From: a virus
Taxonomy: Duplodnaviria; Heunggongvirae; Uroviricota; Caudoviricetes
IMG/VR virus record: IMGVR_UViG_2547132277_000002
DNA length: 21,851 bases
Strand: one strand, 5' to 3'
Position 1 is the first letter of the stretch. Each line of letters opens with the position of its first letter. Position numbers and translations under genes: made by a program. The notes under the pieces are model-generated. The model saw nothing but the letters and a program-made list of their open reading frames with translations. It was not told the origin of the DNA and made no database searches. Of the stretch, positions 1-12,039 are shown piece after piece.

Positions 1-1024
1 TCCGTAGTTCATCATCCAGCGAGATCCGTATTGATACCGGCTGGCCACACAGGCTTTCCGGTACGCTGTAACGGTTCCCGCCAACCTCGATATAGCCATC
101 CCAGGAGACATGACGGATATCGAAATAGCTGGTATCGAAGTCCGTACCCGGCAGCGGATGCAGATGCTCCTGTTCCTGCGTGAAGCGCTGTTCCGGTGTC
201 TGCCTGAACTGGCGAAGTTCTCGCCTGTCAGCAACGTCAGCCATCCACTGCTCCAGTAGCTGGTTAACATGGGCGAAGCTGTCGAACCGGCGGTACCGGA
301 TGAAGAAGTTTTCCTTGAGGTATTTCACCATCCGTTCAACCTTACCTTTGGTTCTGGCCCTTCGTGGACGGCAGGCCCGTGGCAGGAAGCCATAGTGATC
401 GGCCAGCAGCAGGAACCCGGAGTTGAACACCACCTTCCCGTTGTTATTTTTCAGCACTGCGGCTTTCTGGTTATCGACCAGCACGGTTTTCACGCTACCG
501 CCGAAGTAGCGAAAGGCGCGGACCAGTGACTCATAGGTATGTTCAGCATCCTGCTTTGGTGCCGCGAAGACATGGAAGCGACGTGAGAACCCCAGCGTAT
601 TAACCGCGAAGTTAACCCTGCATCGTTGCCCGGCAACCTCAGCCTCAACTTCTCCCCAGTCATGCTGTAGCTGGTAACCGGGCTGAGTTTCGAAGCGAAC
701 CGTTTTCTTCGATGGCCGCATCTTACGTTTGGGCTGGATGTAGTAGCGCAACATGGAACGGCCACCGGTATAACCCATCGCTTTGATTTCCGCCAGGATG
801 ACCTCGCCGTTCCAGACGTTCTCAGCCAGACGCATATCTATATAGTCCATGAACGGCTTGAGTTTGGCCATTTTGTGGCGTGTTTTTCTGGCCGGAGGTT
901 CCGGGTATTTCAGGTACCGTCTGACGGTCCGCTCAGAGCAACCAACCTGAGTGGCAATATCAACAATATACGCACCTTGCTGGCGCATTTGCTTTATCAT
1001 GTAAAAATCCTCTCTGCTCAGCAT
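1..1024 (-). CDS. istA: IS21-family transposase IstA, N-terminal ~341 codons (C-terminus beyond window)
   Basis: Minus-strand translation from ATG at 1024-1022 reads MLSREDFYMIKQMRQQGAYIVDIATQVGCSERTVRRYLKYPEPP... with no stop to the window edge; N-terminal HTH plus DDE-type core matches IstA of IS21 as recalled. Absent from ORF track because it has no stop in window. Confidence 0.8.
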   Translation of the reverse strand, partial: MLSREDFYMIKQMRQQGAYIVDIATQVGCSERTVRRYLKYPEPPARKTRHKMAKLKPFMDYIDMRLAENVWNGEVILAEIKAMGYTGGRSMLRYYIQPKRKMRPSKKTVRFETQPGYQLQHDWGEVEAEVAGQRCRVNFAVNTLGFSRRFHVFAAPKQDAEHTYESLVRAFRYFGGSVKTVLVDNQKAAVLKNNNGKVVFNSGFLLLADHYGFLPRACRPRRARTKGKVERMVKYLKENFFIRYRRFDSFAHVNQLLEQWMADVADRRELRQFRQTPEQRFTQEQEHLHPLPGTDFDTSYFDIRHVSWDGYIEVGGNRYSVPESLCGQPVSIRISLDDELR

Positions 1025-1125
1025 GAGTGTTCCCTTTGTGGTGTAGGAACCTTAAGGAAACAACATGTTGGGTGGAGCGGACAATCCAAATGGTGAATTA
1101 CTGTCTTATATCATTGGCGCTGACA
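1..1125 (-). mobile_element. IS21-family insertion sequence, left-end portion (element continues past window start; istB expected off-window)
   Basis: istA frame runs off the window edge; ~100 bp terminal region 1025-1125 lies upstream of istA; lysozyme homology of the adjacent gene stops abruptly near 1125. Exact IS end not determinable by eye. Confidence 0.65.
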
Positions 1126-1560
1126 ATCTTTTATCCACCAGCGAATCGCCTCGCATGCACCCTTACGATCACCGGCATTCAGCCGCTTATAAAACGTCGA
1201 CGGGAAACACTTACCGGGGCCAATGTTATAGGGACAAAATGACGCTATACCCGCTTTCTGGGGTTCGCTCAATGGCACTTTGATGTTTTTCTCCACCCAT
1301 GCCAGCGCCTTATCACGCTCAATGGCGTTAACCTGGTCGCATTCTTCCTTCGACAGCTTCATTCCCGGTATGACGGGCTTACCATCCACCATTGTGGCAC
1401 CACGACAGATGGTCCATATACCGGAACCATCGCGGTATGCCGTAGTGTGGTTACCCTCTTTTTCATCCAGAAACTGGTCAAGTATTTGAGGAGCAGACGC
1501 GCCTGCAGCAATCAGCGCCAGAACAGCAGCTGACAGGCCGTATTTGATTTTTGCGCTCAT
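1111..1560 (-). pseudogene. Phage SAR-type endolysin (T4-lysozyme-like, GH24), 3-prime end truncated by the IS21-family insertion
   Basis: 149-aa ORF with N-terminal signal-anchor-release stretch YGLSAAVLALIAAGASAP and catalytic E-x8-D-x5-T spacing (E in KEG, D in RDG, T in IWT). Homology to lambdoid prophage lysozymes (RrrD-like, ~165 aa, recalled) ends after ...EAIRWWIKD; the last codons CQRQ-stop read into IS sequence. Confidence 0.7.
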
Positions 1561-1615
1561 GGATATTTATCAGGATGCTACCAATGAAAGATACTGGAAA
1601 GCCAACTGCAAAAAG

Positions 1616-1930
1616 CTAACAACCCGTAATCGAGTTATCAGAACTGTTAATTTTTATGGTATACCGCGCCTCTGAACAGGGGCGCGTTTCTGGCAACAGC
1701 TCGTCCCCTTCACATAACCCGGCAGCAACATCCAGGAAGACCTGTCTGATGCTCCTTCTGGCTGCTGCCTCATAAAACTCCAGCGCTGCACCTTCAACAC
1801 GGTCCAGCGAGATGTCCAGGTCAAAAATTTCACCGTCAAAGCGTTTTTTGTCCCGTAACGCTAAAGTTACCGTAACTTTATTCTCAAAATTGCGGATCCC
1901 TTTCACAATCAGTTCATAGTTTTGAGTCAT
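1616..1930 (-). CDS. Small phage protein between holin and lysozyme (YdfR-like, DUF1327-like by recollection)
   Basis: 104-aa ORF in the conserved holin / small ORF / lysozyme arrangement of Qin-type lysis cassettes; no recognisable catalytic motif. Confidence 0.5.
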   Translation of the reverse strand: MTQNYELIVKGIRNFENKVTVTLALRDKKRFDGEIFDLDISLDRVEGAALEFYEAAARRSIRQVFLDVAAGLCEGDELLPETRPCSEARYTIKINSSDNSITGC

Positions 1931-1934
1931 TGAA

Positions 1935-2150
1935 TTACTCTCCCCGTGCAGCCTTACGCTTGTCTTCTCTGATTTTGAAGTACAGATTTGTCAGATAAGT
2001 CAGGAAGCCCAGAACCAGACTCCCCAGTACACCAATCGCAGCCCACTGTGACGGACTGACCTGATCAAGCCACTGTAAAAACCAGTAGCCAGCACTGCCT
2101 GCGGAGGTGCCATAGGCAATGCCCGTTGAAATTTTGTCCATGGATTTCAT
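1935..2150 (-). CDS. Holin, lambdoid S-like class II (EssD family)
   Basis: 71-aa ORF with two hydrophobic helices ([19 protein letters not shown]; [23 protein letters not shown]) and a charged C-terminus [13 protein letters not shown]; near-identical to DLP12 EssD as recalled. Confidence 0.8.
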
Positions 2151-2207
2151 AGCCTCACCTCCGCAAATAACGGATGGCGTAGTTTTACACTGAGAAATGA
2201 AAGGGAT

Positions 2208-2236
2208 TTGAAAAGAAAAGCCCGCAAAAGCGGGCG
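2208..2236 (-). terminator. Rho-independent terminator between tRNA array and holin (candidate tR-prime, the target of Q antitermination)
   Basis: Plus-strand GCCCGC-AAAA-GCGGGC hairpin at 2220-2235; on the minus strand it is followed by TTTTCTTTTC. Confidence 0.5.
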
Positions 2237-2310
2237 AAACAATATATACAGTAAGGAAAGCACTCTATCCAACAAACCACCCACAGTTAATCGGAATAAA
2301 AGCAGAGTGC

Positions 2311-2383
2311 TTATGAATGATCGCCTGCCCGAAGGTTAGTATTTCTGCACAGCAATTTTGCAAAAAAAGGCGATCATTCATAA
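2311..2383. repeat. Perfect 15-bp inverted repeat (TTATGAATGATCGCC / GGCGATCATTCATAA) with 43-nt spacer
   Basis: Arms at 2311-2325 and 2369-2383 are exact reverse complements; located between tRNA-Gly and the putative tR-prime. Confidence 0.6.
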
Positions 2384-2442
2384 CTTAAACGTCCTTCAGT
2401 CACTCCGGGATTTCCCATCATCGCAGACTGAAAGACTCTGAC

Positions 2443-2517
<75 letters not shown>

Positions 2518-2520
2518 ATA

Positions 2521-2596
<76 letters not shown>

Positions 2597-2598
2597 AC

Positions 2599-2675
2599 TG
2601 GACCGCCACCGGGGACTCGAACCTCGCACACTCAACTTAAAGAGTTGACGCTCTTTCCTGATGAGCTAGTGGCGG
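2599..2675 (-). tRNA. tRNA of uncertain identity (manual fold gives anticodon UUU, Lys-like, with atypical C at position 33)
   Basis: 77 nt, CCA encoded; acceptor CCGCCAC/GTGGCGG (C1-G72), D-arm GCTC-ATCAGGAAA-GAGC, anticodon stem TCAAC/GTTGA, loop UCUUUAA, T-loop TTCGAGT. Needs tRNAscan-SE. Confidence 0.5.
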
Positions 2676-2676
2676 T

Positions 2677-2752
2677 TGGTGGCCCTTGCTGGATTTGAAC
2701 CAGCGACCTGGCGATTATGAGTCGCTCGCTCTCACCACTGAGCTAAAGGGCC
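2677..2752 (-). tRNA. tRNA with CAU anticodon, ileX/ileZ-like (tRNA-Ile2; elongator Met not excluded)
   Basis: 76 nt, CCA encoded; GGCCCTTTAGCTCAGTGGTGAGAGC...CTCATAA...GGTTCAAATCC...AAGGGCCACCA closely resembles E. coli tRNA-Ile2 as recalled; anticodon loop CUCAUAA. Confidence 0.7.
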
Positions 2753-2761
2753 GGGCGCAGG

Positions 2762-2790
2762 ATAATAACGTTACGAAATCAATGTTGCAA
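2762..2790 (-). promoter_or_regulatory. Sigma70-like promoter driving the tRNA array / late operon (candidate PR-prime)
   Basis: Minus-strand -35 TTGCAA (plus 2785-2790), 17-bp spacer, -10 TATTAT (plus 2762-2767); predicted start just upstream of the first tRNA (5-prime end at 2752). Confidence 0.45.
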
Positions 2791-2871
2791 GCATTCAAAA
2801 ATCACTTGGTTAAAAATCACCCTTATCTCCTCCACCAGCGCATTCACCATGTCTATCCGAGATAAGTGACA

Positions 2872-2894
2872 CAAAAAAACCCGCTTGATGCGGG
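2872..2894 (-). terminator. Hairpin terminator separating the cargo operon from the tRNA/late promoter
   Basis: CCCGC-TTGAT-GCGGG stem-loop at 2880-2894 preceded by an A7 run on plus (T7 after the stem on minus); only TTT follows on the plus strand. Confidence 0.5.
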
Positions 2895-2942
2895 TTTAAG
2901 TTGTGTGGCGAAGCGACCACTCTTAACAGATTAAGATAGTTT

Positions 2943-2972
2943 TTGCGTACGCGTTAGTGATTTTTTCATAAT
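2943..2972 (+). promoter_or_regulatory. Candidate sigma70 promoter for the plus-strand three-gene cargo operon
   Basis: -35 TTGCGT at 2943-2948, 18-bp spacer, -10 CATAAT at 2967-2972, ~45 bp upstream of the probable start codon. Confidence 0.4.
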
Positions 2973-2984
2973 TATCTGTATCCT

Positions 2985-3896
2985 GTGGCTATTTCTCTTG
3001 CGCAAAGGATGCTTTTGATGACGCAGCAACTCGAAAACATGCCAATAACAGAAATCGAAATTGCCTACGGTGGAGAGGCATACGCAGATAATCAGATCGA
3101 CGCGAAAACATTAGGCGAAGCCTTAACCTCTCTTAGTGCCCTGATTGAACACGCCGAAAAAATAATTAATGGCGAAACAGCAGAGCCGAAAGTCAACATC
3201 AAGGCAACAAAAGAAGGTTCATTTACTTTGCTTGTTGCTGTGATGGGGAGCATAAAAACTATTAACGCCCTTGGCCTCGTTGCAGGTGGTGGAGTTGCCG
3301 CAGGTGGCGTACTCGGGATAATCGAATGGCTCAAAGGGCGTAAAATCAGCTCCATTGTCGTCGATGAACAAAAAGATACAGCAGAAATCGAAGTGGATGG
3401 TGAGAAGGTTAAATGCAGTAACGACATTCAAAAATTAATAACCAGTCCAATCATCCGAAAAGAACTGGATAAATTAATCTATAAACCCCTGCAGACTGAA
3501 AAACCATCCACGTTCTCAGTTTCACAGCAGAAGCATAAGGTAGTCAGGGTGACGCAAGCTGAAGCAGTAAGTTTTAAAACTGCAAAATCCACCTTTGTCG
3601 AGAAAACGCACGTAACGACACGCCAAGCTAATGTACATTTTGCTAATGTTCGATTCAAGCAAGGCAAAAGCTGGGATATCATCCTGCCAAATGGCGAAGA
3701 AGTTAGCGCATCTATGAAAGATGAGGCTTTTCTTGAACGGGTTGAACACAACCAAGCAGCATTCTGTAAGGGTGATCTTTTTGTTGTAGAACTGACAGAA
3801 ACAACAAAAGAAACAAATGGCGCGCTGTCTAAACCACGCTATAGTATTACTAAGGTTATACGCCACAGAGCGGCGGCAGATAGGAAACTACTTTAA
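2985..3896 (+). CDS. Cargo gene A: unknown protein with a central Gly-rich hydrophobic segment (probable start ATG 3018, 292 aa)
   Basis: ORF-track start 2985 is GTG; ATG at 3018 has AAGGA 8 nt upstream. Hydrophobic stretch FTLLVAVMGSIKTINALGLVAGGGVAAGGVLGIIEWL; no motif I can assign. Opposite strand to every flanking phage gene. Confidence 0.6.
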   Translation: MAISLAQRMLLMTQQLENMPITEIEIAYGGEAYADNQIDAKTLGEALTSLSALIEHAEKIINGETAEPKVNIKATKEGSFTLLVAVMGSIKTINALGLVAGGGVAAGGVLGIIEWLKGRKISSIVVDEQKDTAEIEVDGEKVKCSNDIQKLITSPIIRKELDKLIYKPLQTEKPSTFSVSQQKHKVVRVTQAEAVSFKTAKSTFVEKTHVTTRQANVHFANVRFKQGKSWDIILPNGEEVSASMKDEAFLERVEHNQAAFCKGDLFVVELTETTKETNGALSKPRYSITKVIRHRAAADRKLL

Positions 3897-3899
3897 ATC

Positions 3900-4145
3900 A
3901 TGTCAATCCTAAGCATTATGCTTTACATCACTGTATTCATGGCTGTCGCAGCGACGGTCAGATATGCTGTGCTTAGGTTCTTGGTTTGGGTAAAGCCGAA
4001 TGCGTATATTGAACTAACCTACACCGATCCTGAAGGCAGAACCGCTAAAAGGAAAGTCAGCGTTAGAAACGAAAATGACGCAGAAGAGTTGGCGCTACTG
4101 CTACGCGAACTCAAAACTCGCAACGAAGCAAGTGCAGGAAGGTGA
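3900..4145 (+). CDS. Cargo gene B: small protein with N-terminal transmembrane helix and charged C-terminus
   Basis: 81 aa; ILSIMLYITVFMAVAATVRYAVLRFLVWV hydrophobic; starts 4 nt after gene A stop. Confidence 0.55.
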   Translation: MSILSIMLYITVFMAVAATVRYAVLRFLVWVKPNAYIELTYTDPEGRTAKRKVSVRNENDAEELALLLRELKTRNEASAGR

Positions 4146-4532
4146 ATGGCGAACACTAAATCCTACCTGGCAATGCAGGCATGGTTTACCACCCTTATCA
4201 CTGCGGGATTGAATTTCCTTTTTGACTGGCTTCCTCAATTAGCCTTCTTCAAATCATTGGCGCCTGGAGCTGCTGTCGGCTTATCTCATGTGGTAATTCT
4301 TCTTATCGCTTACATAGGTTTGCCTACGCTTAATGATGTAAGAATGAAAAGGGAAATAAAAACGGCCAGAAAATTCATCACGAACTGCCTGGCCAACCCT
4401 AACCTAACACCAGACCAAATTGCGCACTACAACCAATGTCTTATCGATCTAGACAATAAGCTATTAAAAAACATAAATATTCGTATTGATGCTTTATCTG
4501 ACGCCGAATCGAAAGCTCAAGCAAACGAGTAG
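4146..4532 (+). CDS. Cargo gene C: predicted membrane protein (two hydrophobic helices) with a soluble C-terminal ~70 aa
   Basis: 128 aa; TGA-ATG junction with gene B; SD GGAAGGTGA upstream; helices WFTTLITAGLNFLFDWL and AAVGLSHVVILLIAYIGL. Confidence 0.6.
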   Translation: MANTKSYLAMQAWFTTLITAGLNFLFDWLPQLAFFKSLAPGAAVGLSHVVILLIAYIGLPTLNDVRMKREIKTARKFITNCLANPNLTPDQIAHYNQCLIDLDNKLLKNINIRIDALSDAESKAQANE

Positions 4533-4545
4533 TAACAGTCATAAC

Positions 4546-4902
4546 TTATGATAGAATCAAGCATATACATCCATCAATAAAGCCTAATGCAGTTTGCAGC
4601 TCCTTTCTTATAGTTCCATCTGAGCACCTGCGTTTCTTCGCGATTGAGCGTAGAGAAACACCAATAACAAAGTGAGCTATGAGCAGCTCATATTCCTCTG
4701 GTTTATACTTTCGCAACCGAGCCACACAACCGTCTATCATGATGCCTTCATCATCATCACACTGGAGACGTGACTTTTTGCCATGTGGCAAAAGCCTCTT
4801 GAAGCCCGCTGCTATCGGTTGCCAATCGACACCGCTATTTTCTGCTGCAGCCCATGCCCCCCAGCGATCTAAAACCTCATACATATCACGCCCCATTACC
4901 AT
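4546..4902 (-). CDS. Late-gene antiterminator Q (phage 21 / DLP12 QuuD-like family)
   Basis: 118 aa; motifs VLDRWGAWAA, IAAGFK, Cys-rich segments; conserved position downstream of rusA; resembles QuuD-type Q as recalled. Confidence 0.7.
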   Translation of the reverse strand: MVMGRDMYEVLDRWGAWAAAENSGVDWQPIAAGFKRLLPHGKKSRLQCDDDEGIMIDGCVARLRKYKPEEYELLIAHFVIGVSLRSIAKKRRCSDGTIRKELQTALGFIDGCICLILS

Positions 4903-5257
4903 CGCCTCTGATTTCGCAAATCTTCACGCCCAGCCGCCCACCAGGAACGAGCTGACCGCGCACAATATTGATTTCATCAAACTGCTCGTCGTCTATAAGT
5001 AGTCCGGCATGCGTCAGCGCATCCAGTGGTGCCTTCAGGATATTGTCCAGGTCGCGGCGGCGCTTATCCGGTGGCTCTGCAATCACCTTTATCGCCAGCC
5101 TTCCGGACAGGCTTAATTTCAGCCGCTGCTGGCGAACAATAAGCGCCACAGCCCGGCGATAACGCTTTCCCTCCTCCGAGATAAAATATGTGCTGCCACG
5201 GCGTCGCCAGTAAGTGTTCACCGTCGGCGGGTAAGGTAAAACCAAATCTATGAGCAT
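4886..5257 (-). CDS. rusA: Holliday-junction resolvase RusA
   Basis: 123 aa; PYPPTVNTYW... and RRRDLDN motif typical of RusA; nin-region position upstream of Q. Confidence 0.8.
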   Translation of the reverse strand: MLIDLVLPYPPTVNTYWRRRGSTYFISEEGKRYRRAVALIVRQQRLKLSLSGRLAIKVIAEPPDKRRRDLDNILKAPLDALTHAGLLIDDEQFDEINIVRGQLVPGGRLGVKICEIRGDGNGA

Positions 5258-5269
5258 CAGTCACCTCTT

Positions 5270-6319
5270 TTACCCAAGCACGCCAGTTGCAAAGGCGTGA
5301 TCAAGAAAACGAAAAATTAAATCAACCTGAGAACCATGCTTTTCTTCGAACGCCAGCGGATCCGCATGAAGCTCGTTGTGATGCTCCCGACACAGCGGTA
5401 GCGTGAAAATATCGTGAGATTTTGTCCCCATTCCGCCCTGACCATGACCAATCAGGTGATGGGGATCGTCGGCTGGCTTACCACAACACGCACACGGCTG
5501 TGTCTTCACCCAGCGAGTGTATTTCTCGTTAACCCAGCGGCGACGTTTAGGTCGTTTCATGAAAGATTCCGGAGACTCAGGATCAACGGCAATGCTGACC
5601 ACCGTCTTTTCCTGTGGTGGGTTCTGTTGCTGGTGGGCGTGAGGCAGCGGCGCAAGATTTTTTGTGCGCTGTTTCAGTATGCTGGTGGCGGTCTGCTCTC
5701 CCGGTACGATGTCGCTTTCACGGTACATGGAGCGGATTTTTTCCACACGCAACCCCAGCGAACGACGTAATACCGCTTCCGGTAGCGCGTCCGCCACCTG
5801 ATTGCGGACCGCCCACCAGGATAATTCAGCCAGAGATAATTCACGCTCCTGCGTACCGCTTATTGCGTGACCGATGACGTCAATCATCCATGCTGACAGG
5901 TTTTGATGAGCAAGTTGCTCGAGTGATTCGGATGTCTGGTCACGCAGCTGGTTGTCGCAGTGCCAGCACAACACCATTGCGCCGGTACCATAACGGTGAA
6001 TGACGGTTTCGCTGTGATGATAATCGCCGTGTGGCCACTGGCAGGATTTAATATGGCGCAACAGCCAGTCAGACAATGCACCAGCACCACCAGCAGCACG
6101 AATCACCCGCTCATCGCTGAAAAATGGCAGTAATGATTTATCCTCCGCCAGCGGCTGGCGAACGGCAGGAACGACCCCGGACGGCAGACCGCGCATGCTT
6201 TTTGGCTCCGGTTCAACCAGCACTCTGCCGTTATGGAATACCTGCATGGATTCACGACCTGGCTTAACGATAACCACCCCAAGTTCCGGCACCAGAACAG
6301 GTCGAAGTAATACCCGCAC
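5270..6319 (-). CDS. DUF968-family nin-region protein (YdfU-like)
   Basis: 349 aa; C-terminal Cys/His-rich block QPCACCGKPADDPHHLIGHGQGGMGTKSHD...CREHHNELH recalled as DUF968 of Qin-type prophages. Confidence 0.65.
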   Translation of the reverse strand: MRVLLRPVLVPELGVVIVKPGRESMQVFHNGRVLVEPEPKSMRGLPSGVVPAVRQPLAEDKSLLPFFSDERVIRAAGGAGALSDWLLRHIKSCQWPHGDYHHSETVIHRYGTGAMVLCWHCDNQLRDQTSESLEQLAHQNLSAWMIDVIGHAISGTQERELSLAELSWWAVRNQVADALPEAVLRRSLGLRVEKIRSMYRESDIVPGEQTATSILKQRTKNLAPLPHAHQQQNPPQEKTVVSIAVDPESPESFMKRPKRRRWVNEKYTRWVKTQPCACCGKPADDPHHLIGHGQGGMGTKSHDIFTLPLCREHHNELHADPLAFEEKHGSQVDLIFRFLDHAFATGVLG

Positions 6320-6320
6320 G

Positions 6321-6593
6321 TTACCTCCAGATGCGTTGCTGGAATGTGCGGGACGGACGCGGTGGGCGTTCGGAATAAGGGAGCCTGACAGAAATTATCC
6401 AGTGTCGGAAGTCAGGGCCGAGGTCTTTCTGAAAGTCGTACCCACGCCTGCGGTAGTTCTGAATCAGCCATTCGGCCTGTTCTTCAGTGCATGGGGCATG
6501 CTGGTACCAGTCATATTTGAATGTATGAGAACGCCGCCCGTGCCAGCTGGCAAGGTCGGTATCAGAATTGTGATGTTTGGTATTGTGCGCCAT
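6321..6593 (-). CDS. Hypothetical small phage protein (nin region)
   Basis: 90-aa ORF ending 1 nt before the DUF968 gene start (coupled); no recognised motif. Confidence 0.4.
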   Translation of the reverse strand: MAHNTKHHNSDTDLASWHGRRSHTFKYDWYQHAPCTEEQAEWLIQNYRRRGYDFQKDLGPDFRHWIISVRLPYSERPPRPSRTFQQRIWR

Positions 6594-6660
6594 CGGTTTT
6601 CTCTGCTGGCGCAGCAGGTGCCAGTTGTTCAGGCTGGCCTGTAGATTGTAAACCAGAATA

Positions 6661-6690
6661 CGTAAAACAAAAAACCCGCCGAAGCGGGTT
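6661..6690 (-). terminator. Rho-independent terminator downstream of the HTH-peptidase gene
   Basis: AACCCGC-CGAA-GCGGGTT stem at 6673-6690; on the minus strand followed by TTTTTTGTTTT. Confidence 0.6.
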
Positions 6691-6694
6691 ATGC

Positions 6695-7816
6695 CTAGTG
6701 AATTTTGCCTCTAAGAGTTCGGTAAGATTGTAGTGAAACAACATCACCACTTCCTGGCAGTTCATGAACCGCAGGAAGATCATCTCCTACTAACTCATAA
6801 AAAATGTCCACTTCTATATCCATTTCATCAGCTATACGCTGTGGGTCGTATCCTAACTCTTCAAATAAAAACGATAAAGCCCGACGGAATAACTCAGGAC
6901 GCTCATGAGGGATTAGATAATCTTCTTTTTCATCAATAGCTTCCCCTTTCCGTTTCAACCCCATAAATGCAGTTCTGTACTGCTCATCAGTCAAAAGTCC
7001 TAATTGATGAGCCCTGTAAACAATGGCAGCCTTACTTACTTTCCATGTCAACTTAAATTGGCTTAGTCCCTGCCAATTTATCCTCCCCCCCACAGGTCTT
7101 GGAAAATATTTCGCCATCGACGTTCTGGGAAGCAACAGAGCAGAGGCAAAACGGTTTGCCTGGGATTCAGTTAATCTATCCCCAGTAGAAATTCCTTCAT
7201 GAAGAATCAAATGGGCAACCTCATGAGCAATATCAAAGCGTTGCCTACAAGGTGAATTTTTAGCTGTATTTCGAACAATAAAAGGCCTTCGTAGAGGAAC
7301 AGACAGTGCATCTACTTCATCCGAAACGGAGTCAAATGAAGTAACAAACGCCCCAAGTTTCTCGGCAAGGCGAGTCATATTTTCAATTGGGCCAAAGCCT
7401 AAGCCCCACTCAATACGACATTTTTCTGCCGCTCGCTCGATATCTTCTTGTGTATGGACACGAAATTCAGGAAATCGAACAGGTGACAAATTAAGGTTAT
7501 CTTCAAATACATCAATAAAACGACGATAAAACTCAGCCTTAGCGAGTGTTGATAGCTTCGTTGACATCCTTGTCGAGGCGCGTTTACGAAAATGTACAAT
7601 CTCTTCATTAACAGGAGAATGTTCCTGCCCTTCGAAAAAGGCGGGCTTCACGCGCAAAACCTCGGCTAATTTATTTATAAGCTCTGGGGATGGAGTAGCT
7701 GAACCAGACTCCAGTCGCTGTACATACTGGCGTGTTTTTTCAACCTTCTCAGCAACCTGCTCCAGAGATAGCTCGTGATACAGACGAGCAAGTCTTAAAT
7801 TAGTACCGTTAAACAC
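6695..7816 (-). CDS. Fused XRE-family HTH regulator / ImmA-IrrE (COG2856) zinc metallopeptidase
   Basis: 373 aa; N-terminal HTH LRLARLYHELSLEQVAEKVEKTRQYVQRLESG; HEXXH zinc motif in DIAHEVAHLILHEG; GTG start 11 nt after the upstream gene stop. Confidence 0.8.
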   Translation of the reverse strand: MFNGTNLRLARLYHELSLEQVAEKVEKTRQYVQRLESGSATPSPELINKLAEVLRVKPAFFEGQEHSPVNEEIVHFRKRASTRMSTKLSTLAKAEFYRRFIDVFEDNLNLSPVRFPEFRVHTQEDIERAAEKCRIEWGLGFGPIENMTRLAEKLGAFVTSFDSVSDEVDALSVPLRRPFIVRNTAKNSPCRQRFDIAHEVAHLILHEGISTGDRLTESQANRFASALLLPRTSMAKYFPRPVGGRINWQGLSQFKLTWKVSKAAIVYRAHQLGLLTDEQYRTAFMGLKRKGEAIDEKEDYLIPHERPELFRRALSFLFEELGYDPQRIADEMDIEVDIFYELVGDDLPAVHELPGSGDVVSLQSYRTLRGKIH

Positions 7817-7826
7817 ATTTCACCCA

Positions 7827-8420
7827 CTATTTGCTATTTTGTTTCTTTTCCTTCTCAGTCTTAGACGCACTGATAGGTTCTAGTTCGATAGGTACCGGTG
7901 CTGGAGGTACATCATCGACAGAGTTCAGCATAACAACACGGTCCGCACCATATGTCCAAGTTGACACGATCTCACCAAACACGTTATAGCCATTAAAAAT
8001 GACTCTACCACCCTCGCCTTCAAATTCAGGCTTTTCAACCACAAAGCGATGCATAGTTGGAGTAGTCTCCTCTGACTCAAAGAGTCGATCAGCATCATTT
8101 CTTTTGAAAAAACCGCGTTTCTTGGGGTTATCTGCGTCATCAGTAAAGAAACGAATAGGGACATTCCCAATTGAAAACGTAAGATCCATGCCAGGATTAA
8201 GTAGTCTTAACCAGTCATATGTCTTTCGTACGCACATTTGTAGCAACGCCTGCCGCTGACGCCCAAATGTACAACCACCACGAGTGTAATTATCATCATA
8301 GGGCGATGACAATAACTCATGAGTAATATCCTGTATCCTGAGCAACTCCTCAGCTATAATGGTTAAACGCACCTCTGTTAACTCAGGAAAGAACTCCCAA
8401 GGGAATGGATGGTTCTGCAT
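7827..8420 (-). CDS. Unknown protein, first gene of the two-gene cassette (197 aa from ATG 8420; ORF track extends to 8468)
   Basis: ATG at 8420 has GGAG 8 nt upstream; the longer start would overlap promoter-like TTGACA boxes. No recognisable domain. Confidence 0.55.
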   Translation of the reverse strand: MQNHPFPWEFFPELTEVRLTIIAEELLRIQDITHELLSSPYDDNYTRGGCTFGRQRQALLQMCVRKTYDWLRLLNPGMDLTFSIGNVPIRFFTDDADNPKKRGFFKRNDADRLFESEETTPTMHRFVVEKPEFEGEGGRVIFNGYNVFGEIVSTWTYGADRVVMLNSVDDVPPAPVPIELEPISASKTEKEKKQNSK

Positions 8421-8469
8421 AGACACTTCTCCGCCTAATCCGTGCAAAAAACGACTTTTGTCAACCAAG

Positions 8470-8498
8470 ATATTGGTGCATATTCATAATTTTGTCAA
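8470..8498 (-). promoter_or_regulatory. Possible promoter for the two-gene cassette (weak -10)
   Basis: Minus-strand TTGACA (plus 8493-8498) directly after the terminator T-run, 17-bp spacer, -10 CAATAT (3 of 6); a second TTGACA at plus 8459-8464. Confidence 0.3.
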
Positions 8499-8499
8499 C

Positions 8500-8523
8500 A
8501 AAAAAAAACCCCGCCGAAGCGGG
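8500..8523 (-). terminator. Rho-independent terminator upstream of the two-gene cassette (downstream of the ParA-like gene)
   Basis: CCCGC-CGAA-GCGGG stem at 8510-8523; on the minus strand followed by T9 (plus A-run 8500-8508). Hairpin nearly identical to the one at 6673-6690. Confidence 0.65.
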
Positions 8524-8870
8524 TTAAGTGCGGGTGCGTTGAGGATGCCTGACACATCAGAGGTGGCGAGGGATTTCTCCCTCGCCTGGTCTCTTACTCC
8601 TCAGGTTCGTAAGCTGTGAAGACAGCGACCTCCGTCTGGCCGGTTCGGATTCGTACCTCGCAGAGGTCTTTCCTCGTTATCAGTACCGCAACAATTTCGT
8701 ATTCATGATTCATTTCATCTAAAACAGTTCATAAACCTAAATAAATTCAAAAAATCACAACACAAATAAATATAAATTATCTCATCCTGAAGAACGATAG
8801 GATTATTTAGAATTAATAACAATTAATGTAACAATAATTATCAATCCAGATTATTCAAATAAAATGTCAT

Positions 8871-9917
8871 TTACCATATGGAGTTGTGAATGAACTTTAA
8901 TTCATTTTTTATTTTGTTAACAGATAAATTCACGGATGTCCTAACTCTATTCACAGTCATTGCATCTCCTGGATTTAACAACTCTAATGGTTTAGACTTA
9001 GCACTTGACATTCTGCCACTACCCAGAAAATCATCAAGAATCACAATGTGATTATTAGGATCATCTGTTGTAAAATTACTAATATTTTGTCGAATTACCT
9101 CTCTTACAGCTTCGATGTACATTTTTGTCTGTTGATTTGGTTTATTCCTTGCTCCTGCCACTGTTGACCATCCGCAATGGGTAATAACCACCATCTGAAT
9201 TTTTGGTGTATGGCCATCAGACGGCATTATCTTTCTAAATTCTGATGTTGGTTTAGTCAGAGTATCAATAAGTAATCTTAATGAATTAATCGATTGCTGA
9301 TCTGTCCTCACTGGAACTATTAAAGCATCTGTTGCATGCCAAGATAAATGCGTCGCTCCAGAGAAAAAAGGTGATGTATCAATTAACGCTTTTGTAGTAC
9401 CAGTTTCAACCATTTCTCTGGCTATTTCTTTCTTCAGAGAAAAAAGAATTGTATCAATAACAACCTGCTGAGTAGCCCCAGAAATTGTTCTGGCTTGAGC
9501 CAGAGCATTCGCCATTTGCGTAGGTAGAAGATAAAGTTGACTATCAGATTGAATAAAATAGTTATTCTTGCCCGCAAACCAAGCATTAGTTGATGATACT
9601 AGCTTTGCAGCACGCGTTGCAAATCCAAGCCCTGGAACAAAATAAGGCATTAAGAGGTCATTTGCAGTTGTGCTAGACGAAGATGCATAATTATTGTCAA
9701 AAAAATATGATAAATTTCCTTGCGGGCACGTATCCACGATTAATGCGTTATCCGCCAAATATGACAGATTAAAAGTTAAAGATGTCTTACCAATGCCTCC
9801 CCGTAAATTACATACTGTATATTTATCATATTTCGGCAAATTAAGACTTCTTACATTACCGTCAGCAACTTCGAATTGACGCTCTATCAGAGCATTAACA
9901 TTTGATTCACTAGTCAT
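8871..9917 (-). CDS. ParA/MinD-family (SIMIBI) P-loop ATPase-like protein, standalone, AT-rich
   Basis: 348 aa; deviant Walker A NLRGGIGKTS (Arg at the signature-Lys position), IVDTCPQGN (ParA DxDPQ-type motif), ALIDTSP Walker-B-like; sampled lines ~34% GC versus ~50-55% in the phage backbone. Confidence 0.65.
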   Translation of the reverse strand: MTSESNVNALIERQFEVADGNVRSLNLPKYDKYTVCNLRGGIGKTSLTFNLSYLADNALIVDTCPQGNLSYFFDNNYASSSSTTANDLLMPYFVPGLGFATRAAKLVSSTNAWFAGKNNYFIQSDSQLYLLPTQMANALAQARTISGATQQVVIDTILFSLKKEIAREMVETGTTKALIDTSPFFSGATHLSWHATDALIVPVRTDQQSINSLRLLIDTLTKPTSEFRKIMPSDGHTPKIQMVVITHCGWSTVAGARNKPNQQTKMYIEAVREVIRQNISNFTTDDPNNHIVILDDFLGSGRMSSAKSKPLELLNPGDAMTVNRVRTSVNLSVNKIKNELKFIHNSIW

Positions 9918-9947
9918 ATCGCCACCATTAGTTTTACACTTTTATTG

Positions 9948-9976
9948 ATGATATGGAAAACTAACCTAGTTGTCAA
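9948..9976 (-). promoter_or_regulatory. Near-consensus sigma70 promoter for the ParA-like gene
   Basis: Minus-strand -35 TTGACA (plus 9971-9976), exact 17-bp spacer, -10 TATCAT (plus 9948-9953), ~30 bp upstream of the ATG at 9917. Confidence 0.55.
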
Positions 9977-10401
9977 CAATGGATTAAAAAACAAACACAC
10001 AAGCGTTTATCAAAAGCACCTTGATTGGTGATACTACCGTGTCTTTCAGCCAAACAGTTCAGTATGTAAAGCGAATCCAACATCAATTAAGAACGTTTTC
10101 AGCGCTCCCCCAGTTGTCTAGATGTCAAACTTCATGCGCTCTCCTGTCGAAATAAACGTACTGATTAATCATGCCCAAGGACATTTCGCGTTTTACAGCG
10201 ATATCACGGCGGGGAACTCCACACTGATGAAGCTTCCGCACTAGCTCAATATCGCTTTGCGGATGTTTTTTTGATTGGTTATAACCCCCCCTCTTAACAT
10301 CCTATTGATACCCAGTTCCTGCGCTTTCGCTCTGACAGCATAACTAGAACGATCAATCAACCCTCCTATGCTTTCGGCCGTCAACGCGTCTACACAATTG
10401 C

Positions 10402-10897: not shown

Positions 10898-11968
10898 TTA
10901 CCCCCTGAAGCCCGGCGGAATTTCGTTATCCGGTTCAGAAATATGATTCACACAACGCTGGTTGTTCGTGCCGCTTACCGGGAGCAACCAGGGGTTCTCA
11001 AAATTCCGGTCCGGTCCAAAAAACGTCGTCGCTCGCTGAACAAATTCCGTTCCCGTTTTCCCGGTAGCCGCCAAGTATCTTGCGTAACGCCTCACGCCAT
11101 CCAGCATGGCCTCTGGTGGCACCCCCTCGCGTAATCTGGCCTTCCAGGCACTGAAAGCGGATTTCTTCGGGTTTGCCCCGGCACGCAACGGGTATTCCCG
11201 CCAGACCTGTTCGAACACATCAGGATAATCCACTCGTCCCACAGGCTGCCCGGTGTTTTCCGGGACTACCCGATCGGCTTCCCGCTGAATGGCGGAATCG
11301 GCTTCAGGCTGCTGAAGTTGGTGTGATTGCTCCTGCCTTGCGGTCATCACCTGCTGCACAGCGCCCGAATCGGCTTTCAGCGCATACGCTGAATCGGCTT
11401 CCGGTGTCGTGCCTGCGGGCTGGCCAGGAGTGACGGTCTGAACATCCCCTGCCTGGTTCGTGGCGTTTTTTACGCCATGGACCATAGTGTTTTGATCTTC
11501 TTGATCTGTATCTTTATCTGTATCTTTATCTGTCGTGACTCGTCGTGACATGTGCGTGACATTTCGTGACTCGCCGTGACAATCGCCATTTTGTTCCCGC
11601 TTTCTTTCCCTCTCTCGCTGCGCCCTCTTGCGCTCTGCCGGAGATTTTGCGGTTTGCGAAATATTGCCGTTGTCCTCTTTCAGCACCTGGCGTTTTTCCC
11701 ATCCAGTGATTAAATCACCATCAAGTACCCGCCCCTGCATCGTCTGCAAAATTGAATCAATTACCTCTTCTGTCACGTCGAGCGCACTTGCCAAATCTTC
11801 TGTCGTGACATCAATGTGACCTCGCGTGACATTTCGTGACGCGCTCACCAGGAGGTGGATATACACTGCCATCACTGTTGCAATTGGCTGCCCTGACACC
11901 CTGGCAATTGTTCGCCACTTAGGGTCATTTGGCATGTCATGCCATAATCTGAGCCAGGCGTTAGCCAT
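10898..11968 (-). CDS. Replication initiation protein (lambda O-like organiser N-terminus, DnaT-like C-terminus) with internal iterons
   Basis: Probable start ATG 11968 (SD GAGG 5 nt upstream; ORF-track GTG at 11974); acidic DKDTDKDTD linker; C-terminal YPLRAGANPKKSAFSAWKARL recalled as DnaT-like; position after the cII-like gene. Confidence 0.65.
   Translation of the reverse strand: MANAWLRLWHDMPNDPKWRTIARVSGQPIATVMAVYIHLLVSASRNVTRGHIDVTTEDLASALDVTEEVIDSILQTMQGRVLDGDLITGWEKRQVLKEDNGNISQTAKSPAERKRAQRERERKREQNGDCHGESRNVTHMSRRVTTDKDTDKDTDQEDQNTMVHGVKNATNQAGDVQTVTPGQPAGTTPEADSAYALKADSGAVQQVMTARQEQSHQLQQPEADSAIQREADRVVPENTGQPVGRVDYPDVFEQVWREYPLRAGANPKKSAFSAWKARLREGVPPEAMLDGVRRYARYLAATGKTGTEFVQRATTFFGPDRNFENPWLLPVSGTNNQRCVNHISEPDNEIPPGFRG
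11509..11532. repeat. 12-bp tandem direct repeat TATCTTTATCTG x2 (encodes DKDT repeats on minus strand)
   Basis: Exact duplication at 11509-11520 and 11521-11532, immediately adjacent to the iteron array. Confidence 0.7.
11534..11580. repeat. Iteron array: five CGTGAC repeats at 10-11 bp spacing (candidate replication origin)
   Basis: CGTGAC at 11534, 11544, 11555, 11565, 11575 (plus strand), inside the replication gene as in lambda ori. Confidence 0.55.
11773..11840. repeat. Second cluster of CGTGAC / GTCACG motifs
   Basis: GTCACG at 11773; CGTGAC at 11804, 11825, 11835; degenerate TGTGAC at 11815; 10-11 bp spacing. Confidence 0.4.
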
Positions 11969-12039
11969 ACTCACCTCTTTTGATACCGAATCTTTTTACT
12001 CACAAATTGCCGGAAGTGATCCGGTATGAATATTGCGAG

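What the first reader, a model, noticed from the sequence alone, without database searches (positions are those of the whole stretch)
6661..8530. Near-identical terminator hairpins flank the two-gene cassette
The hairpins at 6673-6690 and 8509-8525 share the core CCCGCCGAAGCGGGTTA preceded by an A-run (about 23 nt nearly identical), both acting on the minus strand. A third related hairpin (CCCGCTTGATGCGGG, 2880-2894) sits beside the three-gene cargo operon. Reused terminator modules at cargo boundaries suggest modular moron insertion, or recombination sites for cassette exchange.
Basis: seen in the sequence. Interest (0 to 1): 0.35.

Follow-up and report, generated by a model that had tools for sequence, protein, structure and literature searches.

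The report
Terminator hairpin duplicated around defence cassette
Two copies of one very common transcription-terminator hairpin bracket a RosmerTA anti-phage cassette in an E. coli lambdoid prophage, and comparison with about 350 related phage loci shows this hairpin is the exact joint at which several unrelated cargo cassettes have been inserted or swapped.

Summary
Positions 6665-6691 and 8500-8526 match at 25 of 27 nt, share an identical 14-nt core (CCCGCCGAAGCGGG), and both are minus-strand intrinsic terminators.

- **Right copy:** the resident terminator of a prophage hok mRNA. hok itself is truncated in this window.
- **Left copy:** it ends a RosmerTA moron (rmrT plus rmrA, with its own promoter) 4 nt after the rmrA stop codon.
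- **Empty sites:** related prophages without the cassette carry exactly one hairpin. Deleting "cassette plus one copy" in silico reproduces them.
- **Other cargo:** seven other cassette types sit at the same joint, each with a second hairpin copy. They are two more Rosmer variants, a split ImmA/XRE pair, two Doc/Phd variants and a lipoprotein. One Doc/Phd cassette is joined to six unrelated downstream sequences directly after its hairpin.

There are two caveats. First, the hairpin is not a special module. The 18-mer AACCCGCTTCGGCGGGTT is a widespread C(UUCG)G terminator found in phage contigs of 30-67% GC, and similarity inside the window stops at the terminator. Second, the third hairpin (2877-2897) is only generically similar; it is a tR'-like terminator.

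The most likely mechanism is short-homology recombination between a cargo's own terminator and the resident one, analogous to PeSL shuffling in T4-type phages. This is inferred, not shown.

The parts
6665..6691 (-). Left copy of the terminator repeat. Stem-loop 6673-6690, core 6675-6688, U-run encoded by 6661-6674. It terminates the RosmerTA cassette 4 nt after the rmrA stop codon (6695-6697). Its outer (left) flank is the native flank of empty sites.
   Evidence: flank comparison with empty sites
8500..8526 (-). Right copy of the terminator repeat. Core 8510-8523, U9 run encoded by 8500-8508. This is the resident hok mRNA terminator: its outer (right) flank is the hok 3'UTR, as in all related loci.
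6695..7816 (-). rmrA, the RosmerTA antitoxin: an XRE helix-turn-helix domain fused to an M78/ImmA-IrrE Zn-peptidase, 373 aa.
   Evidence: Pfam HTH_3 1.5e-12 and Peptidase_M78 8.4e-17; PADLOC RmrA PDLC03943 4.3e-201, positions 1-368 of 370
7827..8420 (-). rmrT, the RosmerTA toxin of unknown fold, 197 aa from the ATG at 8420. The mechanical ORF extends to a TTG at 8468.
   Evidence: PADLOC RmrT PDLC03929 6.9e-92 aligns residues 17-213 to model positions 1-197 of 198; homologues are annotated as 594-nt CDSs
8421..8499 (-). The cassette's own promoter/operator region. Two copies of GTTGACAAA...TGCAC (TTTTGTCAAC at 8456-8468 and 8490-8502) include a consensus -35 TTGACA that abuts the U-run of the right hairpin.
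   Evidence: D12; the motif is conserved upstream of rmrT homologues in other genera. Promoter activity is inferred.
8527..8713 (-). hok remnant: 3'UTR 8527-8593 plus a truncated ORF 8594-8713 that keeps only the C-terminal ~30 residues of Hok. Homology to intact hok loci ends near 8688.
   Evidence: annotated hokD/MokW/gef in related records
6321..6664 (-). Native downstream flank: a ~70-nt spacer and a conserved 90-aa ORF (6321-6593) preceding ydfU/DUF968 (5270-6319). Used as the left anchor in the survey.
2877..2897 (-). Third hairpin. It is not a member of the repeat. It is a tR'-like terminator between the Q/late-promoter region and the phage tRNA cluster (2443-2752). The stem is shared generically and the loop differs.

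Best explanation
The two hairpins are direct-repeat copies of one intrinsic terminator, created when a self-contained RosmerTA moron (promoter, rmrT, rmrA, terminator) entered the prophage at the terminator of the hok mRNA.

The cargo's own terminator already had the same very common C(UUCG)G hairpin. The crossover therefore fell inside 14-27 nt of shared sequence. That left a hybrid copy on each side: hok 3'UTR, hairpin, cargo promoter on the right; rmrA stop, hairpin, native U-run and spacer on the left.

Both copies work as minus-strand terminators. The right one ends transcription coming from the hok side. The left one stops the constitutively transcribed cassette from reading into the nin/ydfU-rusA-Q genes in the lysogen.

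The same short homology lets cassettes be gained, lost or exchanged between phages, by single crossovers between phages or by Campbell-type integration and excision of a one-hairpin circle. This is how PeSL motifs are proposed to work in T4-type phages.

Shown: the repeat, the terminator features, the identity of the cassette, the single-hairpin empty sites, and the junction positions in many loci. Inferred: the direction of events, the recombination pathway (phage Red/RecET-type, RecA, or template switching at the hairpin), and the insulating role.
For: 1. Empty site. Phage Evi and 44 of 120 IMG/VR loci have one hairpin with the window's left flank on one side and the hok 3'UTR on the other. 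A synthetic 'window minus cassette minus one copy' sequence aligns in a single piece across the junction with natural loci in E. coli genomes.

2. Recurrence. In all 20 surveyed loci where cargo is present and the native flank is intact up to the hairpin, the cargo lies between two hairpin copies. In 10 of these the right copy is degenerate. The cargo types are window-type Rosmer, Tritos-type Rosmer (RmrA 32% identical, RmrT unrelated), a third Rosmer type (RmrA 43% identical), ImmA/XRE, two Doc/Phd variants and a lipoprotein.

3. Same cassette, different neighbours. Doc/Phd always follows the hok 3'UTR and hairpin, but is followed, directly after its downstream hairpin, by six unrelated sequences (19, 9, 8, 7, 1 and 1 loci). 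The window's cassette occurs with two different left flanks that switch at the hairpin (L115 against the window and L028).

4. The native U-run and spacer of the resident locus always follow the distal copy. A cargo-specific U-run follows the hok copy. So the joint lies inside the hairpin or U-run.

5. Cargo brings a matching terminator. rmrA homologues in Salmonella (a P2-like element) and Yersinia end in the same 14-nt core, and those in Klebsiella have one loop change. ImmA/XRE homologues in non-hok lambdoid nin regions share DNA homology that stops at the same downstream hairpin.

6. The core occurs nowhere else in 1.14 Mb of these lambdoid loci.

7. Moron features. Cassette GC is 0.42-0.44 against 0.52-0.56 to its left. 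It has its own conserved promoter/operator. It is present in only 22 of 5426 E. coli genomes, always at this site.
Against: - Identity alone therefore does not prove common descent.
- The homology is only 14-27 nt. From general knowledge, that is at or below the length usually needed for efficient RecA-type recombination.
- No circle or excision product was observed. No genome among 5426 carries this lineage's flanks (truncated hok plus ParA-like block) with the cassette precisely removed.
- About 36 loci at the same hotspot carry cargo (rem, ParDE-like, HigBA-like and others) with a different left breakpoint and no second hairpin. The hairpin is therefore not required for cargo turnover.
- For the ImmA/XRE cassette, homology on the 5' side starts 40-50 nt after the upstream hairpin in 3 of 4 contexts. 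Only the 3' boundary is exact.
- The lipoprotein class has a broken right copy (AAAACGCCGAAGCGGG), which looks more like an imprecise joint than a clean homologous exchange.
Confidence: 0.6

Rival explanations
1. Independent generic terminators. Each cargo simply carries its own copy of the commonest optimal terminator, and hok has one too. The hairpins play no part in recombination. Cargo arrived by illegitimate recombination, and selection kept only insertions that preserve hok termination and stop read-through.
For: The 18-mer is widespread in unrelated phages. Similarity in the window stops at the terminator. Rosmer, Doc and ImmA homologues elsewhere already end in this hairpin or in close loop variants. 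Other cargo classes at the hotspot use other breakpoints.
Against: Random insertion into the ~100-nt spacer should split the native spacer at varied positions. Instead, in 20 of 20 non-replacing insertions (five cargo classes in that survey, eight cassette types over all the loci examined) the complete native U-run and spacer follows the distal hairpin and none of it follows the hok hairpin. An insertion between stem and U-run cannot be favoured by selection for termination. In a non-hok phage the repeat extends 30-80 nt beyond the hairpin (L234), which is duplication rather than convergence.
Confidence: 0.2
2. One ancient duplication of the hok terminator created a two-terminator landing pad. 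Later cargoes replaced one another between the two fixed hairpins, which are kept because both are needed as terminators.
For: All two-hairpin cargoes are co-oriented with hok and end 4-12 nt from the distal hairpin. Two Rosmer types share the same left-flank allele, AATACGTAAAACAAAAA.
Against: Empty one-hairpin sites are the commonest state (44 of 120). Two-hairpin inserts sit in several different resident backgrounds (orf90-type, rem-type, c1232-type, c412-type), which implies repeated events. Each replacement would still need joints exactly at the hairpins, which amounts to the main model.
Confidence: 0.1
3. Target-site duplication by a transposition-like insertion that makes staggered cuts on either side of the palindrome, or site-specific recombination of the folded hairpin by a dedicated recombinase (integron attC-like or IS200/IS605-like).
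For: The topology resembles both: cargo plus one site, a direct repeat of the site on both sides, and one site when empty. One contig has an array of three hairpin-terminated cassettes (L234).
Against: The cassette ends have no terminal inverted repeats. No transposase or integrase is encoded in the cassettes or next to them. The repeat length varies from 20 to 27 nt between cargo types. The hairpin is a perfect 5-7 bp stem with a 4-nt loop, not an attC-like imperfect 57-141 nt structure. An IS200-type element would carry both hairpins with it and leave none behind.
Confidence: 0.05

Closest known systems
PeSL (promoter-early stem-loop) cassettes of T4-type phages (Arbiol et al. 2010, PMC2839356; Comeau et al. 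2014, PMC4122927)
   Same: Conserved regulatory motifs containing an effective stem-loop terminator flank non-essential cargo ORFs in hyperplastic regions. One phage has motif-ORF-motif where its relative has a single motif. Recombination between the motifs is proposed to delete, insert or shuffle cargo, possibly through mini-circles. The one-copy versus two-copy polymorphism seen here is the same.
   Different: A PeSL is a ~100-bp composite of a strong promoter and a stem-loop found in lytic T4-like myoviruses. Here the repeat is only the terminator (14-27 nt). The promoter belongs to the cargo and is not repeated. The host is a temperate lambdoid prophage. The resident copy is the terminator of a hok toxin mRNA. 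The hairpin sequence is a generic one found in many unrelated phages. Mini-circles were shown for PeSLs but not here.
Morons of lambdoid phages (review PMC3594210)
   Same: An independent transcription unit with its own promoter and terminator, a deviating GC content, and absence from close relatives.
   Different: The moron concept does not specify where insertion happens. Here the insertion joint is mapped to the terminator hairpin itself and recurs for several cargoes.
Integron gene cassettes and attC sites (from general knowledge)
   Same: The unit is ORF(s) plus a 3' hairpin-forming site. Insertion at a resident site gives site-cargo-site, and arrays are possible (L234).
   Different: There is no integrase, and the hairpin is a plain terminator rather than an attC. 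Cassettes carry their own promoters. Repeat boundaries vary between cargo types.
P2/P4 prophage defence hotspots (Rousset et al. 2022, PMC9122126)
   Same: A fixed intergenic position in a temperate phage holds alternative defence or toxin-antitoxin systems. Homologues of this very Rosmer cassette sit in a P2-like hotspot between the replication endonuclease and the portal gene.
   Different: Those hotspots are defined by flanking core genes, and exchange was speculated to start from cos ends. No terminator joint was described there.
RosmerTA defence system (Millman et al. 2022, bioRxiv 10.1101/2022.05.11.491447)
   Same: The cargo is a clear member: a Zn-peptidase/HTH antitoxin plus a toxin of unknown function.
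   Different: Nothing new about the system itself was found. It is the passenger, not the finding.

Membership tests
Intrinsic (Rho-independent) terminator | GC-rich stem, short loop, followed by a U-run on the transcribed strand | tested here: met
   Both copies: 5-7 bp stem with 5 GC pairs, UUCG loop, U6GU4 or U9 tail, minus strand only. Folding energies are -13.8 and -10.3 kcal/mol.
Intrinsic (Rho-independent) terminator | Transcripts actually end there | not testable with these tools
   Needs Term-seq or 3'RACE.
Moron | Present in some and absent from closely related phages at the same position | tested here: met
   The cassette is in 22 of 5426 E. coli genomes. Empty sites are common.
Moron | Own promoter and own terminator | tested here: inconclusive
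   The terminator is met. For the promoter there is a consensus -35 TTGACA within a repeated motif conserved in homologues, but the -10 is weak and the consensus scan did not list it.
Moron | Base composition differs from surrounding phage genes | tested here: met
   GC is 0.42-0.44 across 6700-8500 against 0.52-0.56 across 4900-6500.
PeSL-type regulatory cassette | Conserved motif present once in one phage and twice, flanking cargo, in a relative | tested here: met
PeSL-type regulatory cassette | The motif is a composite of a strong promoter and a stem-loop conserved over ~100 bp | tested here: not met
   The repeat is 20-27 nt, covering only the hairpin and its A/T run. The promoter region is not repeated.
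PeSL-type regulatory cassette | Mini-circles formed by recombination between flanking motifs | not testable with these tools
   Needs outward-facing PCR or long reads from lysates.
Integron cassette / attC | Adjacent tyrosine-recombinase integrase and attI site | tested here: not met
   Neighbouring genes are ydfU/DUF968, rusA, Q, a hok remnant and a ParA-like gene. No recombinase was found in any cargo.
Integron cassette / attC | Imperfect 57-141 nt palindrome with conserved R/L boxes | tested here: not met
   The structure is a perfect 5-7 bp stem with a 4-nt loop.
Transposon with target-site duplication | Terminal inverted repeats and a transposase; fixed duplication length | tested here: not met
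   No terminal inverted repeats other than the hairpins themselves. No transposase. Repeat length varies by cargo.
RosmerTA | Adjacent rmrT toxin and rmrA (HTH plus M78 peptidase) genes, full length | tested here: met
   PADLOC RmrA 4.3e-201 (positions 1-368 of 370) and RmrT 6.9e-92 (positions 1-197 of 198); Pfam domains.
hok/sok type I toxin-antitoxin locus | Complete Hok ORF (~50 aa with an N-terminal transmembrane segment) with its upstream mok/sok region | tested here: not met
   Only the C-terminal ~30 codons and the 3'UTR remain. Intact relatives encode MKQQKAMLIALIVICLTVIVTALVTRKDLCEV....
Copy of the flanking hairpin (third hairpin, 2877-2897) | Same loop and flanks as the 14-nt core | tested here: not met
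   The loop is TTGAT against CGAA. The core 14-mer is absent there. Orthologous hairpins in phages 606R7 and Evi have yet other loops.

The most novel reading that the evidence does not exclude
The commonest phage terminator hairpin, AACCCGC-UUCG-GCGGGUU plus a U-run, doubles as a portable recombination linker. Any promoter-to-terminator moron that ends in it can be dropped into, removed from, or swapped at any resident copy by short-homology recombination. On this reading, that is how defence and toxin-antitoxin hotspots in lambdoid prophages are filled. The hok-ydfU site is one example and the equivalent nin-region site in non-hok lambdoids is another. It would be a temperate-phage counterpart of PeSL shuffling and a recombinase-free analogue of integron cassettes.
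Probability: 0.4. Interest if true: 0.65.

Novelty: new variant of a known kind. Interest (0 to 1): 0.45.

Why it matters
Defence systems cluster in prophage hotspots, but how cassettes get in and out is mostly unknown. Rousset et al. could only speculate for P2/P4.

Here the joint is mapped to the nucleotide. It is a 14-27 nt terminator hairpin shared by the resident hok mRNA and by the incoming cargo. If this short, very common terminator really guides exchange, three things follow:

1. It gives a simple, testable rule for where morons land in temperate phages.
2. It offers a way to predict hotspots and cassette boundaries from sequence.
3. It suggests a handle for engineering cargo swaps.

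If it does not guide exchange, the result is still a precise description of a previously undescribed hok-ydfU cargo hotspot in lambdoid prophages.

Tried and rejected
- **Rfam:** no family reaches threshold on either hairpin or the hok 3'UTR. The best hit is a sub-threshold isrK match, 24.5 bits against a gathering score of 50.
- **Transposon model:** no terminal inverted repeats and no transposase.
- **Precise-excision polymorphism within this prophage lineage:** a synthetic deletion product found no match covering at least 80% in 5426 genomes. Only the left two-thirds aligns, colinearly, with ordinary empty sites. Excision in this lineage is therefore not documented.
- **Cassette elsewhere in E. 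coli or on plasmids:** all 22 E. coli copies are at this site. Only ~70%-identical homologues exist on Salmonella, Klebsiella, Providencia and Pantoea replicons.
- **Third hairpin as a family member:** rejected.
- **Remnants of the hok 3'UTR next to the left copy**, which would indicate a larger duplication: none.
- **Functional hok here:** rejected, because the gene is truncated.
- **A strict regular-expression anchor for classifying loci:** it failed and was replaced by the BLAST-anchored classification.
- **Literature:** searches for a described hok-ydfU hotspot or for terminator-mediated moron exchange in lambdoid phages found nothing specific.
Full report
**Context**

The window is an E. 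coli lambdoid prophage, 99.9-100% identical over this region to strain 99-3165 (NZ_CP029981.1). Its early-right/nin region is transcribed on the minus strand. Reading right to left:

| Coordinates | Feature |
|---|---|
| 8871-9917 | ParA-like gene in an AT-rich block |
| 8527-8713 | hok remnant |
| 8500-8526 | right hairpin |
| 7827-8420 | rmrT |
| 6695-7816 | rmrA |
| 6665-6691 | left hairpin |
| 6321-6593 | conserved 90-aa ORF |
| 5270-6319 | ydfU/DUF968 |
| 4886-5257 | rusA |
| 4546-4902 | Q |
| 2985-4532 | plus-strand three-gene operon |
| 2877-2897 | third hairpin |
| 2443-2752 | tRNA-Met/Lys/Thr/Gly cluster |

**Observation**

- The two hairpins match at 25 of 27 nt in direct orientation, 1835 nt apart, with an identical 14-nt core.
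- A 21-mer search allowing 3 mismatches finds exactly these two sites, against 0 expected in shuffles.
- Both are terminator-like on the minus strand only and fold as C(UUCG)G-tetraloop hairpins.
- Alignment shows identity confined to the A-run, hairpin and TTA.
- The third hairpin shares only the stem and the A-run.

**What the parts are**

The cassette is a RosmerTA defence/toxin-antitoxin system, with PADLOC RmrA at 4e-201 and RmrT at 7e-92, both full length (the system is described). Its GC content is 0.42-0.44, against 0.52-0.56 for the genes to its left.

Directly after the right hairpin's U-run lies a repeated GTTGACAAA...TGCAC motif containing a consensus -35. The motif is conserved upstream of rmrT homologues in other genera. 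The cassette therefore runs exactly from promoter to terminator, which is the definition of a moron.

The right hairpin is followed on its outer side by the hok 3'UTR, and the hok stop codon lies 70 nt upstream of it on the transcribed strand. In intact relatives the same hairpin follows a complete Hok ORF. It is therefore the resident hok terminator. In this window hok has lost its 5' half.

**The decisive comparison**

Phage Evi has the same two outer flanks with a single hairpin between them. I fetched 120 IMG/VR loci using a hok-3'UTR pattern, which is blind to what lies beyond the hairpin. I classified them by the distance to the 90-aa-ORF anchor:

| State | Loci |
|---|---|
| Empty, hairpin-only site | 44 |
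| Cargo with the native flank intact up to the hairpin | 20 |
| Cargo that replaces part of the native flank | about 36 |
| Unclassifiable (contig ends or a different neighbour) | 18 |

- In all 20 of the second group the cargo lies between two hairpin copies. In 10 of them the right copy is degenerate.
- The replacement group carries rem, ParDE-like, HigBA-like and YgiW-like cargo among others. These loci have no second hairpin.
- Over all the loci examined, the two-hairpin cargo types are the window's Rosmer, the Tritos-type Rosmer (RmrA 32% identical, RmrT unrelated), a third Rosmer type (RmrA 43% identical), a split ImmA-peptidase/XRE pair, two Doc/Phd variants with different 5' regions, and a lipoprotein.
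- In every case the complete native U-run and spacer of the resident locus follows the distal copy, and a cargo-specific U-run follows the hok copy. The joint therefore lies within the hairpin or its U-run.
- Removing "cassette plus one copy" from the window in silico gives a sequence that aligns in one piece across the junction with ordinary empty sites.

**The same cassette in different company**

- Among 80 loci fetched with the Doc protein, the E. coli-type cassette is always preceded by the hok 3'UTR and hairpin. Directly after its downstream hairpin it is followed by six unrelated sequences. Some of these are other resident cargoes such as rem.
- The window's own cassette occurs with two different left-flank alleles that switch at the hairpin (L115 against the window and L028).
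- The ImmA/XRE cassette also occurs in lambdoid nin regions that lack hok. There, DNA homology to the hok-site copy ends at the downstream hairpin and its U-run, and an upstream hairpin of the same type is present.
- One such contig, L234, has three successive morons each ending in the same core: XRE+ImmA, a GNAT acetyltransferase, and a TonB_C lipoprotein. Its sister contig L233 has one hairpin. There the repeats extend 30-80 nt.

**Is the hairpin special?**

No. It is a generic, probably convergent, optimal terminator.

Homologues of rmrA in a Salmonella P2-like element and in Yersinia already end in the same 14-nt core. Others use unrelated hairpins.

Within 1.14 Mb of the lambdoid loci, however, the core occurs only at the hok position (90 times) or as the second copy flanking cargo (22 times), and never elsewhere. 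In the unbiased 18-mer sample, close same-strand pairs are almost confined to the hok site.

**Mechanism**

The pattern is best explained by short-homology recombination between a cargo's own terminator and the resident hok terminator. This yields hybrid direct repeats, and the hairpin then continues to serve as a mosaic joint between phages.

That is the logic proposed for PeSL motifs in T4-type phages, including the one-motif versus two-motif polymorphism and possible mini-circles. Here, though, the repeat is only the terminator, so membership of the PeSL family in the strict sense is not met.

Both copies should also matter functionally. In a lysogen the left copy would keep the constitutively expressed cassette from reading into ydfU-rusA-Q. 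During lytic growth, antiterminated transcription would ignore both copies. This last point is an inference from lambda biology.

Evidence that tempers the model:

- The homology is very short.
- The hairpin is generic.
- Other cargo classes use a second breakpoint about 40 nt away, at GCCAGCCTGAACAACTGGC.
- The 5' boundary of cassette homology is less exact than the 3' one.
- One class has a broken right copy.
- No excised form of this particular lineage exists among 5426 genomes.

**Third hairpin**

It sits between Q and the tRNA cluster, where related phages have an orthologous hairpin with the same stem but other loops. Homology with tRNA-bearing phages ends exactly at its right edge, position 2897.

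It is therefore also a mosaic boundary, but it is a different, tR'-like terminator and not a copy. The three-gene operon has no matching hairpin at its other end.

**Verdict**

It is wrong in implying a dedicated reused module, and wrong about the third hairpin.

Novelty: a new variant of a known kind, namely terminator-mediated modular shuffling in a temperate lambdoid hotspot. I found no description of it in the searched literature.

Noticed in passing
window 8527-8713 (and 8700-10100): hok is only a 3' remnant: a 39-aa ORF that keeps the C-terminal ~30 residues of Hok. Homology to intact hok loci ends near 8688. Upstream it is replaced by an AT-rich block (GC 0.27-0.40) carrying a ParA/AAA_31-like gene (8871-9917, minus strand), which looks like another foreign insertion that cut hok.
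   Followed up: partly
window 2985-4532 (+): A three-gene plus-strand operon is wedged between Q (4546-4902, minus strand) and the tR'-like hairpin, antisense to late-region read-through. Its first protein matches the PADLOC candidate defence family PDC-S42 (3e-53). The other two have no Pfam or PADLOC hit.
   Followed up: partly
window 8440-8502: Two copies of TTTTGTCAAC(C/A)AA lie 34 nt apart (GTTGACAAA...TGCAC on the transcribed strand). The motif is conserved upstream of rmrT homologues in Yersinia, Klebsiella, Pectobacterium, Pantoea and Providencia. It is probably the RmrA operator overlapping the -35.
   Followed up: partly
window ~6600-6645: A second recurrent mosaic breakpoint lies about 40 nt left of the hairpin, at the conserved GCCAGCCTGAACAACTGGC / CTGCTGCGCCAGCAG elements. 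It is used by the rem-type and several other one-hairpin cargo classes.
   Followed up: partly
L234 3940-5490 (IMGVR_UViG_2537561876_000002): An array of three morons in a non-hok lambdoid nin region, each ending in CCCGCTTCGGCGGG: XRE+ImmA+60-aa Cys-rich protein, a GNAT acetyltransferase, and a TonB_C lipoprotein. Sister contigs L233 and L235 have a single hairpin.
   Followed up: partly
L124 and L126 (Salmonella pRM11060-1; Providencia plasmid 2): Homologues about 70% identical to this Rosmer cassette sit between the replication endonuclease and (in the Salmonella record) the portal gene of P2-like elements, which is the published P2 defence hotspot. In Salmonella the cassette ends in the same 14-nt hairpin core.
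   Followed up: partly
window 8504-8585 (-): A sub-threshold Rfam match of the hok 3'UTR plus terminator to isrK, a Salmonella prophage sRNA (24.5 bits, gathering score 50, E 0.026).
   Followed up: no
L115 (IMGVR_UViG, hok 3'UTR): Another copy of the window's cassette has an IS element (IS4/IS421-like end) inserted into the hok 3'UTR just beyond the right hairpin.
   Followed up: no
window 11542-11580 and 11802-11840; 15048-15066/15177-15195; 2311-2326/2368-2383: Iteron-like GTGAC repeat clusters lie inside ORF 10898-11974. There is also a perfect 19-nt inverted repeat with arms 110 nt apart, and a perfect 16-nt inverted repeat between the tRNA cluster and the holin gene.
   Followed up: no
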